A DNA stretch of 30,710 nucleotides. It comes from a virus. Lineage: Duplodnaviria; Heunggongvirae; Uroviricota; Caudoviricetes. The stretch spans positions 1 to 30,710 of the IMG/VR virus record IMGVR_UViG_2529293040_000025. The stretch is one strand, 5' to 3'. The notes below the pieces were generated by a model. It made no database searches. It was given only the letters and a program-made list of their open reading frames with translations, and was not told where the DNA came from. Positions 8,547-20,876 of the stretch are shown piece after piece (the first letter of the stretch is position 1; each line of letters begins with the position of its first letter). The translations under genes and the position numbers were made by a program.

Positions 8547-8823
8547 TTCTGCCATTCCGGGACGTTACACTGTTCAGGCACCTTATAAAGCGGGTGCCGG
8601 GATTGGCGTCCTGAAATTGATTACTGAGCATAACCGCGCTCATGCGGTTTTTTCGTGTCATGAGCATTGCTACGCCCAAATTATGGTGGGGCGTACAGGG
8701 CCGACTTCGGTCGGGCCGGGTTCGGTAGTCTCCGGTAACGCCAACCCTGTACGTCTCACCACCTCTGTGATTGGCGTCCCATGTGGTGAGTTTTCTGAAA
8801 AACTGACTACCGGGGCTGTCACC

Positions 8824-17179: not shown

Positions 17180-17256
17180 CCGCCATTAGCTCATCGGGAT
17201 AGAGCGTCAGCCTTCGAAGCTGGCTGTGCGGGGTTCAAGTCCCCGATGGCGGTCCA
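17180..17256 (+). tRNA. argN: tRNA-Arg (anticodon TCG)
   Basis: 77 nt; acceptor stem CCGCCAT/ATGGCGG; T-loop TTCAAGT; anticodon loop CTTCGAA; ends CCA. Confidence 0.8.
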
Positions 17257-17269
17257 TTATCAGCATCAT

Positions 17270-17346
17270 GCGTTGTTAGCTCAGTCGGACAGAGCAATTG
17301 CCTTCTAAGCAATCGGTCACTGGTTCGAATCCAGTACAACGCGCCA
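17270..17346 (+). tRNA. argO: tRNA-Arg (anticodon TCT)
   Basis: 77 nt; acceptor stem GCGTTGT/ACAACGC; anticodon loop CTTCTAA; T-loop TTCGAAT; ends CCA. Confidence 0.8.
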
Positions 17347-17436
17347 TATTTATTTACTTGGCTCGCTTTTGCGGGCCTTTTTTTGTATCTGCGTTACACC
17401 ATTAACTAATAAATCGAGTGCTTATCAGGAGGCTAT

Positions 17437-17661
17437 GTGAAAAAACTGATGGTGACGATTGGTCCGTTCGAAACAGAAGTTAGTTTTCGTGTTGTTCAGG
17501 GGGAGAGTGTACTTGTTGAAGATGTATTTCATGGAAAATCAACAGGTCCTTATGTAAAAGAATATCTTATCGACGCCACGGATGAAAATATTGAGGTGGT
17601 GTACGATTCCGTCAATCACCCTGATTTGATCATTAAGGCAAAATTGAAGCCACTTTATTGA
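17437..17661 (+). CDS. small acidic hypothetical protein (74 aa)
   Basis: GTG start 4-5 nt after AGGAGG. Lower GC than the flanks. First gene of a cassette bounded by duplicated terminator-like motifs. Confidence 0.45.
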   Translation: MKKLMVTIGPFETEVSFRVVQGESVLVEDVFHGKSTGPYVKEYLIDATDENIEVVYDSVNHPDLIIKAKLKPLY

Positions 17662-17713
17662 TCTGACCGGGAGCAATCATAAAATATCTCTGGGTACCCA
17701 CAAGGAGATAAAT

Positions 17714-17923
17714 ATGTTTGTTTCTGAAGTGTTAATGGAAGATAAGGACAACAAAGGATGGGTTAAAGGTTGGGCTGTGGTAAGAAGCTCGCCCTGGCAT
17801 CTTGTTGGGGTTTTTGCGACAGAGGAAGACGCAGAAACGGAAGCAAGAAAGATGGGAGATAAGTACGAGGTTCACTATGGCTCGCATCGAACAGGAAGTG
17901 ATGATTTTGTCTGGGGGGAGTAA
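17714..17923 (+). CDS. small acidic hypothetical protein (69 aa)
   Basis: Strong AAGGAG RBS 7 nt upstream; followed by a hairpin and T-run terminator-like motif. Confidence 0.5.
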   Translation: MFVSEVLMEDKDNKGWVKGWAVVRSSPWHLVGVFATEEDAETEARKMGDKYEVHYGSHRTGSDDFVWGE

Positions 17924-18112
17924 CAGTCGTTTAACCCCAGAATAATCCCGTAACTGAGGTCGCTATTGGCGGCCTTTTTTGTATCCGCGCCACGCCCGGC
18001 GCATATCAACCACAGAGCCTTTCGGGGGTGAGCTTACGGAGTGGTCAGTGTGACTTTCTCTGTGGGCAGATCGCTCCCGGGCGTTGGCTCACCCACCCAA
18101 AGGAACGTCACG

Positions 18113-18544
18113 ATGTTTGGTATTTTTGGTAAAAAAGCCCGCCGAGCGGCAGTGGAAATTAAAAAGTTTGAGAAACGTGATCTGGCACAGGCGGTTATTA
18201 ATGCTGCCTATCTGGTGGCCTATGCAGATGGTGAATGTGAGGCTTCAGAGAAAGCGAAGATCGAGCAGATCTTGCGTAACCAGCCTGCGTTGTCCGCGTT
18301 TACGTCAGAAATTAATGCGATTAGCGCAACCATTATCGGTCAGCTGGATACGAACTTTAAAATTGGTCGTCGAGCGGCATTGCGTGAAATTGAAGATGTG
18401 AAACACGATACGCGTGAAGCGGAAGATGTGCTGGATGTGGCGGTGGCCATTGCGGAGGCAGACGGCGAAATTGAGCCGGAAGAGCGCAAGGTGCTGGAAG
18501 AGATTGCCGGTGTTCTGGGTCTTCGTCTGGAGAATCACCAGTGA
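18113..18544 (+). CDS. TerB-like (tellurite-resistance TerB domain) protein
   Basis: Paired AAYLVAYADGECEASEKAKI and AVAIAEADGEIEPEERKVLEEIAGVLGL motifs typical of the TerB fold. Start at ATG 18113 with AGGA RBS; ORF-track start 18041 is an extension. Confidence 0.6.
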   Translation: MFGIFGKKARRAAVEIKKFEKRDLAQAVINAAYLVAYADGECEASEKAKIEQILRNQPALSAFTSEINAISATIIGQLDTNFKIGRRAALREIEDVKHDTREAEDVLDVAVAIAEADGEIEPEERKVLEEIAGVLGLRLENHQ

Positions 18545-18708
18545 CGGTAAAACTGCGCCTGGCTGTGGCTGCACTCCTGCTGTTTCTGGTGGTGATGGTG
18601 GATTTCACCAGCAGAATCATGTCGGTGCTGGCGGATGGGGTGCTGGTCTGCGGCATTGTGGTATTGCTGTGGCCGGTGATAAAAAGAAACAGCCTGCATA
18701 ATGCTTGA
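18541..18708 (+). CDS. small two-helix membrane peptide (55 aa) translationally coupled to the TerB-like gene
   Basis: GTG overlapping the TerB stop (GTGA). Translation VTVKLRLAVAALLLFLVVMVDFTSRIMSVLADGVLVCGIVVLLWPVIKRNSLHNA shows two hydrophobic segments. Followed by a T-run. Below the ORF-track cutoff. Confidence 0.4.
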   Translation: MTVKLRLAVAALLLFLVVMVDFTSRIMSVLADGVLVCGIVVLLWPVIKRNSLHNA

Positions 18709-19022
18709 TTTTTTTATTTGCTGTTTATTAAAAATACTACTGCATGGTGAATCCCCCTGTGCGGAGGGGCGATCAGCAACCAGGTATATGGGATAATCGC
18801 GGATTCAGGTGCTGATACTGAATTCACCGGGAGGCACCCGGCACCATGCTTTGCCGCAAAAGTGTTGTTTCTGTTTTTCTCAAACTATCATCGTTATCCC
18901 TTTATTTCCGGCTGCGCATGGCGTGGCCTTTTTTTTACGACCAGCCACTGGCAGATGGCCATCCTGTAATTTGATTCCGGTTCCGGCTTTTTAACTCTGT
19001 TCCTGTACACGGGAGAAATTCG

Positions 19023-20876
19023 ATGTCGATTAAACATTATGATGTTGTCAGGGCGGCGTCGCCGTCAGACCTTGCGGAAAAGCTGACACACAAACTGAAA
19101 GAGGGCTGGCAGCCGTTTGGTAGTCCGGTGGCCATAACCCCTTATACCCTGATGCAGGCGATTACAGCAGAAGGTGATGTGGTGGTCAGTGGTGCAACTG
19201 AGCCGGATTGGTACTACGTCATCGTACTGGCCGGGCAGTCCAATGCCATGGCTTACGGTGAAGGGCTTCCGCTGCCGGATTCATACGATGCTCCGGATCC
19301 GCGCATTAAACAGCTGGCGCGCCGCAGTACAGTTACGCCGGGTGGGGCTGCATGCAGATATAACGATATTATTCCGGCCGACCACTGCCTGCATGATGTG
19401 CAGGATATGAGTACGCTGAATCATCCGAAGGCAGACCTGAGCAAAGGGCAGTACGGCTGTGTCGGCCAGGGCTTACATATTGCCAAAAAACTGCTCCCGT
19501 ATATCCCGAATAACGCGGGGATCCTGCTGGTACCATGCTGTCGTGGTGGTTCGGCATTCACCCAGGGCGCGGAGGGGACATTCAGTGCGGACACGGGGGC
19601 CAGCCAGGATTCGGCACGCTGGGGTGTGGGTAAACCGTTATATCAGGACCTGATTGCGCGCACTAAAGCTGCATTACAGAAGAACCCGAAAAATGTGTTG
19701 CTGGCGGTGTGCTGGATGCAGGGAGAGTTTGACATGAGCGCCGCCACCCACGCACAGCAACCTGCGCTGTTTACAGCCATGCTGACACAGTTTCGTGCTG
19801 ACCTCTCCGTGTTTAACGCGCAGTGCCATGGTGGCAGTGCTGCAGATGTGCCGTGGATTTGTGGTGACACGACGTATTACTGGAAAAATACATACGCTAC
19901 CCAGTACGACACCGTGTACGGCGGGTATAAAAACAGGGAGAGTGAGGGCGTTTATTTTGTGCCCTTCATGACAGACGGTAACGGCGTCAATACCGCCACT
20001 AACGCACCGGCAGAAGATCCGGATATTCCGGCATCAGGATATTACGGTGCGGCATCGAGAACGAATGGAAACCAGGTATCATCAAACCGCCCGACACATT
20101 TCAGTTCATGGGCGCGCAGGAGCATTATTCCGGATCGTATGGCAACCGCTATTCTGAACGCAGCCGGGCGCACCTCAGCTTTCATCAGTGGTAAGGCACC
20201 GGAAATCAAACCCTCGCCCGGCGGCAACACGCCATCGGGGCCGTCTGAAGATGCATCCGTACGCACAATCTCCCTGTTGCCGACAGCCGGAGAGGCTGCT
20301 GCGCAGGGCTGGACCATTAAGGACGGCGGAATTCAGTTGTCGGGTGGTGTATTTAAGATCGCCAAGCAGAGCAATAAAACCTGGTCCCTGATGCATCCGG
20401 TGGATGACGCAGTCTCCCTGCTGACACGGGGTGGCAGACTGAGCTGTAAGTTTCGACTGTCAGGCGCACTGACCAACAACCAGTTCGGCCTGGGAATTTA
20501 TCTGTATACCGATGTAGCGTTACCTGACGTCGTGGCGATGACCGGGACTGGTAACCCGTTCCTGATGTCGTTCTTCACCCAGACCACAGACGGCAAACTG
20601 AATCTGATGCATCACAAGAAAGCAGGAAACACAAAGTTGGGCGAGTTCGGGAATTACAGTAATGACTGGCAGACGCTGGAACTGGTGTTCACCGCCGGCA
20701 GTGCCACGGTTACTCCGAAACTGAATGGAGTGGCTGGCCCGGCATTCCAGGTCATAAAAGACAGTCTGACACTGGGGCTGAATGCGCTGACGCTGACGGA
20801 TATTACCAAAAATGCAGCGTATGGCGTTGAGATAGAAAGTCTGGTGCTGGAGATAAATGCACCGGCATCATCATAA
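19023..20876 (+). CDS. nanS: prophage sialate O-acetylesterase NanS-p-like (DUF1737 N-terminus plus SASA esterase domain)
   Basis: GQSNAMAYGEG catalytic-serine motif; 617 aa; sits between the tRNA/moron region and the lysis genes, where NanS-p paralogues lie in Stx phages. Confidence 0.75.
   Translation: MSIKHYDVVRAASPSDLAEKLTHKLKEGWQPFGSPVAITPYTLMQAITAEGDVVVSGATEPDWYYVIVLAGQSNAMAYGEGLPLPDSYDAPDPRIKQLARRSTVTPGGAACRYNDIIPADHCLHDVQDMSTLNHPKADLSKGQYGCVGQGLHIAKKLLPYIPNNAGILLVPCCRGGSAFTQGAEGTFSADTGASQDSARWGVGKPLYQDLIARTKAALQKNPKNVLLAVCWMQGEFDMSAATHAQQPALFTAMLTQFRADLSVFNAQCHGGSAADVPWICGDTTYYWKNTYATQYDTVYGGYKNRESEGVYFVPFMTDGNGVNTATNAPAEDPDIPASGYYGAASRTNGNQVSSNRPTHFSSWARRSIIPDRMATAILNAAGRTSAFISGKAPEIKPSPGGNTPSGPSEDASVRTISLLPTAGEAAAQGWTIKDGGIQLSGGVFKIAKQSNKTWSLMHPVDDAVSLLTRGGRLSCKFRLSGALTNNQFGLGIYLYTDVALPDVVAMTGTGNPFLMSFFTQTTDGKLNLMHHKKAGNTKLGEFGNYSNDWQTLELVFTAGSATVTPKLNGVAGPAFQVIKDSLTLGLNALTLTDITKNAAYGVEIESLVLEINAPASS

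What the first reader, a model, noticed from the sequence alone, without database searches (positions are those of the whole stretch)
17347..18000. Two-gene acidic small-protein cassette, bracketed by a duplicated terminator-like motif, at the site where Stx phages carry stx
Directly after the ileZ-argN-argO-like tRNAs, where Stx phages encode stxAB, this prophage has two small acidic ORFs (74 and 69 aa, net charge about -4 and -6) of no recognisable family. The cassette is flanked by two copies of a ~35-bp hairpin plus T-run motif (near 17357-17392 and 17958-17992, roughly GG-TCGCT-TTG-CGGCC-T6-GTATC-GCG-ACNCC). GC content is lower than the flanks. Small acidic phage proteins are often anti-defence DNA mimics or regulators, and this position is a known cargo slot.
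Basis: partly seen in the sequence, partly recalled or inferred. Interest (0 to 1): 0.7.

Follow-up and report, generated by a model that had tools for sequence, protein, structure and literature searches.

The report
Mobile two-gene cargo cassette in prophage
Two small genes of unknown function, carried with their own stop signal for transcription, have been recombined into the exact spot of an E. coli prophage where related phages carry the Shiga toxin genes; this is an ordinary kind of phage cargo, although nobody has studied these proteins.

Summary
Window 17394-17989 (596 bp, 42.8% GC against 51% for the window) is a discrete insert behind the ileZ-argN-argO tRNAs. It holds two real protein genes and sits between two related hairpin-plus-T-run terminators. 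Near-identical prophages and phages Evi and JLK-2012 have the empty site with one terminator. Stx2 phages diverge into stxAB at the same nucleotide. About 12-15% of E. coli genomes with this tRNA-tciA layout carry the insert. Terminator copy B occurs only with the cassette, whereas copy A belongs to the resident tRNA module.

ORF1 and ORF2 are a conserved pair in enterobacterial phages: 76 of 80 viral loci have both. They always lie in the late region, next to Q/tRNAs or after Rz. ORF2 is the core gene. Its family of solitary ~70-aa proteins reaches Pseudomonas and beyond. Its AlphaFold model is confident (pLDDT 95) but has no structural neighbour. A conserved sigma-70-like promoter lies upstream of it. 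ORF1 evolves fast, is confined to Enterobacterales and has no detectable promoter.

The DNA-mimic anti-defence reading is not supported, because acidity is mild and not conserved across either family. Biochemical function remains unknown. This is a moron-type cargo cassette exchanged at terminators.

The parts
17097..17346 (+). ileZ-argN-argO-type tRNA genes. They form the resident module on the left of the cargo slot and are context, not part of the insert.
   Evidence: ARAGORN, Rfam tRNA hits and RefSeq annotation of the identical O26:H11 locus.
17356..17393 (+). Terminator copy A. The hairpin is 17360-17377, the T-run is 17378-17384, and the tail is GTATCTGCG. It is the resident terminator of the tRNA module, and the left junction of the insert lies at its 3' end.
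   Evidence: Terminator scan and predicted fold of -13.8 kcal/mol. Stx phage records match the window region beginning at 16900, and the listed matches end at 17393. The stem follows the local lineage in C325, Evi and JLK-type loci.
17394..17436 (+). Cassette leader with the ORF1 ribosome-binding site (AGGAGG, 17427-17432). No promoter-like site was found here.
   Evidence: The leader is identical in all close homologues whatever lies upstream of it. The promoter scan finds nothing here.
17437..17661 (+). ORF1, 74 aa, GTG start. It is a small soluble protein whose sequence pattern suggests it is probably all-beta. The family evolves fast and is restricted to Enterobacterales phages (phrog_2571).
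   Evidence: Homologues at 29-49% identity lie directly upstream of ORF2 homologues in 76 of 80 viral loci. An exhaustive search of 1.8 billion representatives gave only 11 hits.
17658..17685 (+). Sigma-70-like promoter upstream of ORF2: -35 TTGATC at 17658-17663 (overlapping the ORF1 stop codon), a 16-nt spacer, and -10 TAAAAT at 17680-17685. The inferred transcription start is near 17692, in GGGTACCC.
   Evidence: Promoter scan, 9 of 12 matches. A promoter-like site lies at the equivalent place in L074. T, A and T of TAnnnT are the only invariant upstream bases besides the ribosome-binding site. In all 22 distinct loci a TAnnnT lies 27-29 nt before the ATG, with a -35-like hexamer starting TT 16-18 nt further upstream. 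No experiment has been done.
17714..17923 (+). ORF2, 69 aa, ribosome-binding site AAGGAG at 17702-17707. It belongs to a conserved small alpha/beta protein family (phrog_4280) with distant, sub-threshold resemblance to DUF7336.
   Evidence: 221 clusters. AlphaFold2 model pLDDT is 94.9. No structural neighbour was found.
17953..17989 (+). Terminator copy B. The hairpin is 17956-17976, followed by a T-run and the tail GTATCCGCG. It is the cassette's own terminator, and the right junction lies at its 3' end.
   Evidence: Terminator scan and predicted fold of -12.7 kcal/mol. The same stem follows ORF2 in all close homologues, including L029 where the downstream genes differ. The 45-mer occurs in 106 genomes only.
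17990..18708 (+). Resident downstream module: the tciA leader, tciA (TerB family, 18113-18544) and tciB (DUF3927, 18541-18708). It forms the right flank of the slot and is context only.
   Evidence: Pfam TerB E=1.7e-16, phrog_632 and the JLK-2012 annotation tciA/tciB.

Best explanation
Window 17394-17989 is a self-contained accessory cassette of the moron kind. It has been recombined into the cargo slot just behind the ileZ-argN-argO tRNAs of a lambdoid prophage, the same junction where Stx phages carry stxAB.

**How it arrived (shown by comparison).** The insert brings a short leader, two genuine protein genes and its own intrinsic terminator (copy B). The resident terminator of the tRNA module (copy A) stays on its left, which is why the motif appears twice. 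Both crossovers fall in the 11-15 nt shared by the terminators (T-run plus GTATC). Gain or loss is therefore short-homology recombination between terminators.

**Expression (inferred).** ORF2 is the core gene. It has a conserved sigma-70-like promoter 27-29 nt before its start codon and a terminator behind it. It can therefore probably be made from the repressed prophage as well as by late read-through. ORF1 has no detectable promoter and sits behind terminator A, or overlaps the stop codon of Rz in another lineage. It is most likely made only after induction, when Q-modified RNA polymerase reads through terminators from pR'.

**Function (inferred, low confidence).** Both products are small soluble cytoplasmic proteins. 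They most likely act by binding a host or phage protein. ORF2 would address a conserved target, and the fast-evolving ORF1 would be a lineage-specific partner. They are not DNA mimics.

**Confidence by layer.** Cassette anatomy and mobility about 0.85. Two-tier expression about 0.5. Protein-binding modulator role about 0.2. The single confidence value given (0.55) is for the statement as a whole.
For: **Empty versus filled sites.**
- Phage Evi has argO, one terminator, then tciA.
- E. coli C325 has the same layout with 99.2% identical flanks.
- JLK-2012 has the same tciA junction behind unrelated tRNAs.
- Loci L030-L032 carry the cassette in that JLK-type context, keeping the JLK-type left stem.
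- The eight junction sequences are aligned.

**Frequency.** 782 E. coli genomes have the tRNA-tciA layout, either contiguous or filled. The cassette is in 114 genomes, complete in 93.

**Terminator linkage.** The copy B 45-mer is found in 106 genomes only. The Stx2 phage diverges at the same base.

**Pairing and position.**
- An ORF1 homologue lies directly upstream of ORF2 in 76 of 80 viral loci.
- The pair sits either between Q/tRNAs and tciA or between Rz and terminase. All flanking late genes are on the same strand.
- A terminator follows ORF2 in nearly all lineages, with varied stems.
- The ORF1 homologue overlaps the Rz stop codon in Stx2_EH1846.

**Promoter.** No promoter-like site lies before ORF1 in the window, mEp237 or L074.

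**ORF2 as the core gene.**
- Its family has 221 clusters.
- It is solitary in 54 of 54 non-Enterobacterales genomes sampled.
- It occurs as an antisense single-gene insert in a Pseudomonas tail operon, and in a non-phage chromosomal neighbourhood seen at three places for one Pseudomonas protein.
- Its model has pLDDT 94.9.

**Composition.** The cassette is 42.8% GC against 51% for the window.
Against: - No expression data exist. Promoter and terminators are consensus predictions, and the -35 elements are weak (3-4 of 6 matches).
- The 22 loci used for the promoter argument are related and fall into about six sequence classes, so the statistics are soft.
- The shared homology at the junctions is short for RecA-type recombination. 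The mechanism (a phage recombinase, a circular intermediate, or illegitimate joining) is not shown.
- Each gene also occurs without the other. ORF1 is alone in 28 phage records, mostly Stx2c phages. ORF2 is alone in L057 and L087. A physical or functional partnership is therefore not proven.
Confidence: 0.55

Rival explanations
1. Anti-defence cassette. One or both small acidic proteins would inhibit a host restriction or other anti-phage system, possibly as DNA mimics.
For: - The proteins are small, soluble and phage-borne, lie in a variable slot and are uncharacterised.
- ORF1 evolves fast (29-49% identity) while ORF2 stays at 57-70%. This fits an arms race.
Against: - Charge is mild and not conserved. 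The ORF1 family spans -7 to +2 with pI up to 9.1, and the ORF2 family has median charge -3.
- The position is in the late operon, co-oriented with the lysis genes. The known lambdoid inhibitors of host nucleases that I recall (Gam, Ral) are early genes; that point rests on my own knowledge and was not tested here.
- ORF2 relatives sit in a non-phage chromosomal neighbourhood in Pseudomonas.
- ORF2 appears to have a promoter usable in the lysogen.
- No significant structural match exists to any solved anti-defence protein.
Confidence: 0.12
2. Purely late accessory genes tied to lysis or virion release. Both genes would be transcribed only from pR' with the lysis cassette, as stx is. They would act at the end of the lytic cycle, for example on lysis timing or protection of progeny, or after release.
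For: - The pair is always next to the lysis cassette or between Q and the lysis genes, on the same strand.
- The ORF1 start overlaps the Rz stop in one lineage.
- Terminator A lies ahead of the cassette and no promoter precedes ORF1.
- Neighbouring cargo at this slot (stx, nanS-p) is reported to be co-transcribed with late genes (abstract of PMC8065619, as listed).
Against: - The conserved -10 and -35 pattern before ORF2 persists where ORF1 is missing.
- ORF2 homologues lie antisense in a tail operon or outside prophages, which argues for a role not tied to lysis.
- Neither protein has a signal peptide or membrane segment, judged from the sequences themselves.
- The weak SPOR and ClpS resemblances are not significant.
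Confidence: 0.15
3. Toxin-antitoxin or two-component abortive-infection or defence module encoded by the prophage.
For: - Two adjacent small genes are conserved as a pair.
- They lie in a prophage variable region.
- The two partners evolve at different rates.
- DUF2188 proteins, to which a few ORF2 relatives show faint similarity, have been predicted to be linked to defence (bioRxiv 10.1101/2022.04.27.489752, read).
Against: - No toxin, antitoxin or defence model matches in Pfam, NCBIfam or PADLOC.
- Each gene exists on its own in many genomes. A toxin that needs its antitoxin should not do so.
- The DUF2188 similarity is E=0.12 in 2 of 77 members.
Confidence: 0.05

Closest known systems
Morons of lambdoid phages, defined on HK97 and HK022 (for example the HK97 gene 15 element); reviewed in PMC3594210
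   Same: It is extra DNA present in some but not other closely related genomes, inserted between conserved modules. Its GC content differs from the flanks and it has its own terminator. For ORF2 there is also a promoter-like element, so that part looks like an independent transcription unit.
   Different: It holds two genes. Only the second has a promoter-like element, and the first seems to depend on late read-through. Expression from the repressed prophage has not been shown. The function is unknown, whereas HK97 gp15 has been studied experimentally (PMC3594210).
stxAB operon of Stx-converting phages such as Stx2a_WGPS8
   Same: It has an identical left junction. Sequence is collinear through argO and terminator A and then diverges after ...TATCTGCG. 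Both are two-gene cargo in the late operon between Q/tRNAs and nanS-p.
   Different: The proteins are unrelated. In Stx2 phages stxAB replaces the cassette together with tciAB and the STnc100-like region. There is no similarity to AB5 toxins and no signal peptide.
PeSL mobile regulatory cassettes of T4-type phages (PMC2839356)
   Same: Short repeated regulatory stem-loops flank non-essential genes, and recombination between them creates insertions, deletions and replacements between close relatives. The analogy suggests a testable circular intermediate.
   Different: PeSLs combine a strong early promoter with the stem-loop. Here the repeats are plain terminators without a promoter. The phage family is different, and mini-circles have not been looked for.
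Pfam DUF7336 and DUF2188 small proteins
   Same: They are of similar size. There is weak sequence similarity over the strand-helix core: 14 of 77 ORF2 relatives hit DUF7336, with best E=6.8e-5. One UniRef entry calls a relative DUF2188.
   Different: The window protein scores 17.1 bits against a cut-off of 25. Both families are themselves of unknown function, so membership would add little.

Membership tests
Moron (lambdoid phage accessory transcription unit) | Present in some and absent from other closely related phage genomes, at a precise junction between conserved modules | tested here: met
   Empty sites in Evi, JLK-2012 and E. coli C325 compared with filled sites.
Moron (lambdoid phage accessory transcription unit) | Base composition different from the surrounding genes | tested here: met
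   42.8% GC against 48.3% and 53.1% in the flanks and 51% in the window.
Moron (lambdoid phage accessory transcription unit) | Own transcription terminator | tested here: met
   Copy B hairpin plus T-run travels with the cassette. This is a prediction only; termination was not measured.
Moron (lambdoid phage accessory transcription unit) | Own promoter | tested here: inconclusive
   A conserved sigma-70-like element precedes ORF2. None was found before ORF1. These are consensus matches only.
Moron (lambdoid phage accessory transcription unit) | Expressed from the repressed prophage | not testable with these tools
   Needs RNA-seq or reporter fusions in a lysogen.
DNA-mimic anti-restriction proteins (Ocr or ArdA type) | Strong, conserved negative surface charge that imitates DNA | tested here: not met
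   Net charge is -4 and -6 here. Across homologues it runs from -7 to +2 (ORF1) and from -8 to 0 (ORF2).
DNA-mimic anti-restriction proteins (Ocr or ArdA type) | Sequence or fold similarity to a known mimic | tested here: not met
Type II toxin-antitoxin pair | Recognisable toxin and antitoxin domains | tested here: not met
   Pfam, NCBIfam and PADLOC give nothing.
Type II toxin-antitoxin pair | Toxin gene not found without its antitoxin | tested here: not met
   ORF1 is alone in Stx2c-type phages. ORF2 is alone in L057, L087 and in 54 of 54 non-Enterobacterales genomes.
Pfam DUF7336 | Score at or above the Pfam gathering threshold (25 bits) | tested here: not met
   The window protein scores 17.1 bits, E=0.0051. 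14 of 77 relatives give sub-threshold or weak hits.
PeSL-type mobile regulatory cassettes | Repeated unit combines a promoter with a terminator stem-loop | tested here: not met
   No promoter-like site lies in or next to copies A or B.
PeSL-type mobile regulatory cassettes | Insertions and deletions between relatives bounded by the repeats | tested here: met
   Junction alignment. In the 60-row sample, 14 partial matches end at query positions 232-246, inside the terminator.
PeSL-type mobile regulatory cassettes | Circular excision products formed by recombination between flanking repeats | not testable with these tools
   Needs outward-facing PCR on induced lysogens or phage DNA.

The most novel reading that the evidence does not exclude
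ORF2 founds an unrecognised, widely distributed family of ~70-residue proteins with a fold that has no solved relative. Prophages repeatedly capture it as a promoter-gene-terminator unit and express it in the lysogen, where it acts on a conserved cellular target. In enterobacterial phages it has acquired a late-expressed, fast-evolving partner (ORF1) that switches or redirects its activity once the prophage is induced. That would be a two-state, lysogen-versus-lytic small-protein module, for example an exclusion factor with an induction-specific antagonist.
Probability: 0.1. Interest if true: 0.65.

Novelty: new member of a known kind. Interest (0 to 1): 0.35.

Why it matters
The cassette occupies the best-known virulence cargo slot of EHEC prophages and is common in O26, O145 and related pathogenic lineages. 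Its products are therefore likely made at high level on induction, as Stx is. Knowing what they do would fill in part of the unannotated cargo of these phages.

The junction analysis gives a clean, nucleotide-level example of terminators acting as the joints where lambdoid phages swap cargo, stx included.

ORF2 is a confidently folded small protein with hundreds of relatives and no known structure or function, which makes it a tractable target. None of this is surprising to a phage genomicist, and no mechanism of biological action is yet in hand.

Tried and rejected
1. **Hairpin hiding the ORF2 ribosome-binding site** (TCTCC-GGGTACCC-AAA-GGAGA). It looked conserved by eye. RNAalifold predicted no consensus structure. 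Pair counts did not exceed shuffles (85.5% against 85.0% paired). Accessibility of the ribosome-binding site was not lower than in shuffled upstream sequence for most loci. Rejected as unsupported. The conserved GGGTACCC is better explained as the start of the ORF2 transcript.
4. **Profile searches against PDB sequences for both families.** Nothing below E=0.29.
5. **Two large proteins hit by ORF1** (P0026 and P0027). These are repeat-driven false positives carrying MBG or LRR domains.
6. **Literature searches** for locus tags, PHROG numbers, DUF7336 and mEp237 gave nothing relevant. The DUF2188 papers mention only neighbourhood associations.
7. **Structured RNA in the tciA leader.** The fold z-score was -1.85, which is not significant.

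Full report
**What is in the window**

The region is the late-regulatory part of a lambdoid prophage. In order it contains:
- antiterminator Q at 15800-16594 (Pfam Antiterm, E=8.9e-53);
- a DNA methyltransferase remnant;
- three tRNAs of the ileZ-argN-argO type at 17097-17346;
- the two small ORFs;
- tciA (TerB family) and tciB (DUF3927);
- a match to the small RNA STnc100;
- the sialate esterase gene nanS-p at 19023-20876.

The 654-base finding is 100% identical in E. coli O26:H11 11368, O145:H28 and other strains. It occurs in 114 of 5426 complete E. coli genomes, always on the chromosome, and is annotated only as two hypothetical proteins.

ORF1 (17437-17661, 74 aa) and ORF2 (17714-17923, 69 aa) have net charges of -4 and -6. 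Hairpin-plus-T-run sites lie at 17360-17377 and 17956-17976. The two motif copies are 79-82% identical without gaps and match over most of a ~45-nt core in a gapped alignment. The cassette is 42.8% GC against 48-53% in the flanks.

**Where the duplicated terminator comes from**

Comparison with related elements gives a precise answer.
- Phage Evi and E. coli C325 (flanks 99.2% identical to the window) have argO, one terminator and then the tciA leader.
- JLK-2012 has the same tciA junction behind a different tRNA set, and PPyecE_EH1910 behind unrelated genes.
- Stx2 phage Stx2a_WGPS8 is collinear with the window through ...TTTTTTATATCTGCG and then runs into the stxA leader.
- In the window the left copy keeps the resident stem. 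It is followed, after GTATCTGCG, by cassette sequence (TTACACC...).
- The right copy has a different stem (GAGGTCGCTATTGGCGGCC). It is followed, after GTATCCGCG, by the resident tciA leader (CCACGCC...).
- The same right-hand stem follows ORF2 in every close homologue. This includes L029, where the downstream genes are lysis genes. It also includes L030-L032, where the left stem is the JLK type.
- The copy B 45-mer is found in 106 genomes. That count does not exceed the 114 genomes that carry the cassette.

The insert is therefore 17394-17989 (596 bp): leader, ORF1, ORF2 and its own terminator. Both crossovers lie in the T-run/GTATC tail that terminators of this type share. Among E. coli genomes with the tRNA-tciA layout (782), roughly 12-15% are filled. 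In the 60-row sample, 14 partial matches end at query positions 232-246, that is, inside the terminator. This fits the terminator being a general joint of this slot. The closest described analogy is recombination between repeated promoter/stem-loop cassettes in T4-type phages (PMC2839356).

**The genes are real and usually travel together**

A search of viral contigs with an ORF2 alignment returned 80 loci. In 76 of them an ORF1 homologue lies directly upstream on the same strand. Two of the remaining four had no upstream sequence. In phage mEp237 the pair (35% and 65% identity) lies after the lysis genes and is again followed by a terminator.

Across loci the pair occupies one of two places, both in the late region and co-oriented with it: between Q/tRNAs and tciA, or between Rz and the terminase genes.

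ORF1 evolves much faster than ORF2 (29-49% against 57-70% identity to the window proteins). Each gene also occurs alone.
- ORF1 homologues sit directly after Rz, overlapping its stop codon in the locus examined (Stx2_EH1846). They occur in 28 phage records, mostly Stx2c-converting phages, none of which was among the 7 records that matched ORF2.
- ORF2 is alone in L057, L087 and in Pseudomonas phages.
- In one genome per species, 67 loci encode an ORF2 relative. ORF1 precedes it in 10 of them, all Enterobacterales. It precedes none of the 54 from Pseudomonas, Azotobacter, Ralstonia, Achromobacter, Methylobacter, Chthoniobacterales and others.
- Three Pseudomonas and Burkholderia examples were examined. 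One shows ORF2 relatives as an antisense single-gene insert in a tail operon. A second lies in an island next to an integrase. The third is a non-phage chromosomal neighbourhood, found at all three places examined for one Pseudomonas protein.

ORF2 is thus the core element, and ORF1 is an add-on specific to enterobacterial phages.

**Expression signals**

No promoter-like site precedes ORF1 in the window, in mEp237 or in L074. ORF1 sits behind terminator A or is coupled to Rz. I therefore infer that it is made only by Q-dependent read-through.

Before ORF2 the scan finds TTGATC-16-TAAAAT at 17658-17685, and a similar site lies at the equivalent place in L074. In the alignment of 22 distinct upstream regions, the only invariant bases apart from the ribosome-binding site and the ATG are the T, A and T of a TAnnnT hexamer. 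In all 22 this hexamer lies 27-29 nt before the ATG. A hexamer beginning TT lies 16-18 nt further upstream, and the spacers are not conserved. The pattern persists where ORF1 is absent.

This is the footprint of a sigma-70 promoter. It makes ORF2 plus terminator B a classical promoter-gene-terminator unit. It remains a prediction, because the loci fall into only about six sequence classes and the -35 elements are weak.

**What the proteins are**

Pfam, NCBIfam and PADLOC give no significant match. PHROGs places both in families of unknown function.

ORF1 has only 11 relatives among 1.8 billion representative proteins. From its sequence pattern it looks like a small all-beta domain, but it was not modelled.

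**Assessment of the anti-defence reading**

Acidity is mild and is not a family trait. The location is late rather than early. ORF2 relatives exist outside phages. No structural or profile link to any anti-defence or defence protein was found. The idea is not excluded, and ORF1's rapid divergence would fit an arms race, but nothing specific supports it and DNA mimicry in particular is unlikely. A toxin-antitoxin reading is disfavoured because each gene is found alone.

**Verdict**

This is a genuine, mobile, two-gene cargo cassette of the moron kind. It sits in the stx slot and was exchanged by recombination at terminators. The likely expression pattern is two-tier: ORF2 in the lysogen and late, ORF1 late only. 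Biochemical function is unknown. My best guess, at about 0.2, is that the products are small protein-binding modulators. The kind of element is well known, but this member and its two protein families are uncharacterised.

Noticed in passing
window 18716-18885 (+): Strong Rfam match to the small RNA STnc100 (RF02076; 102 bits against a gathering score of 47) between tciB and nanS-p, ending at a terminator-like site at 18910-18928.
   Followed up: no
window 8578-8654 and 8679-8766 (+): Rfam matches to isrK (59 bits) and C4 antisense RNA (82 bits) side by side in the early region of the prophage.
   Followed up: no
window 17990-18112 (+); also L006 3270-3385: The ~120-nt leader between terminator B and tciA contains a long inverted repeat (GGGTGAGCTTACG ... 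CGTTGGCTCACCC). A similar arrangement (GTGAGCC ... GGCTCAC ... AAAGGAA-ATG) precedes an unrelated gene after the pair in mEp237. The fold z-score is only -1.85, so a structured RNA is not established.
   Followed up: partly
L042 2148-2168, L043, L054, L055, L057 2741-2761, L070, L072 (not in the window): A conserved hairpin element (GCATTACAG-CAGGCATTCACTGAGTGCCTG-TGATAATGC) lies just upstream or downstream of the ORF1-ORF2 pair in the loci where the pair follows Rz. It may be another module-boundary element.
   Followed up: partly
window 17692-17699: The palindrome GGGTACCC (GGTTAACC in one lineage), at the predicted start of the ORF2 transcript, is conserved even where ORF1 is only 35% identical. 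The reason is unknown.
   Followed up: partly
proteins P0022 (181 aa) and P0029 (169 aa): Two ORF1 relatives carry C-terminal extensions of about 90-120 residues that are unrelated to ORF2. ORF1-like domains may therefore combine with other partners, or these may be read-through artefacts.
   Followed up: no
L093-L095 (Pseudomonas chromosomal loci); L117, L125, L149, L158 (Chthoniobacterales and Acidobacteriaceae genomes assembled from metagenomes): ORF2 relatives occur in a non-phage chromosomal neighbourhood in Pseudomonas, between an M23 peptidase gene and a Bax1-I family gene. Others occur in distant phyla, hinting at a cellular origin for the phage gene.
   Followed up: partly
window 16904-17056 (+): A remnant of a site-specific DNA methyltransferase gene lies between the pR'/tR' region and the tRNAs. 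It is annotated as a pseudogene in the identical O26:H11 locus.
   Followed up: no
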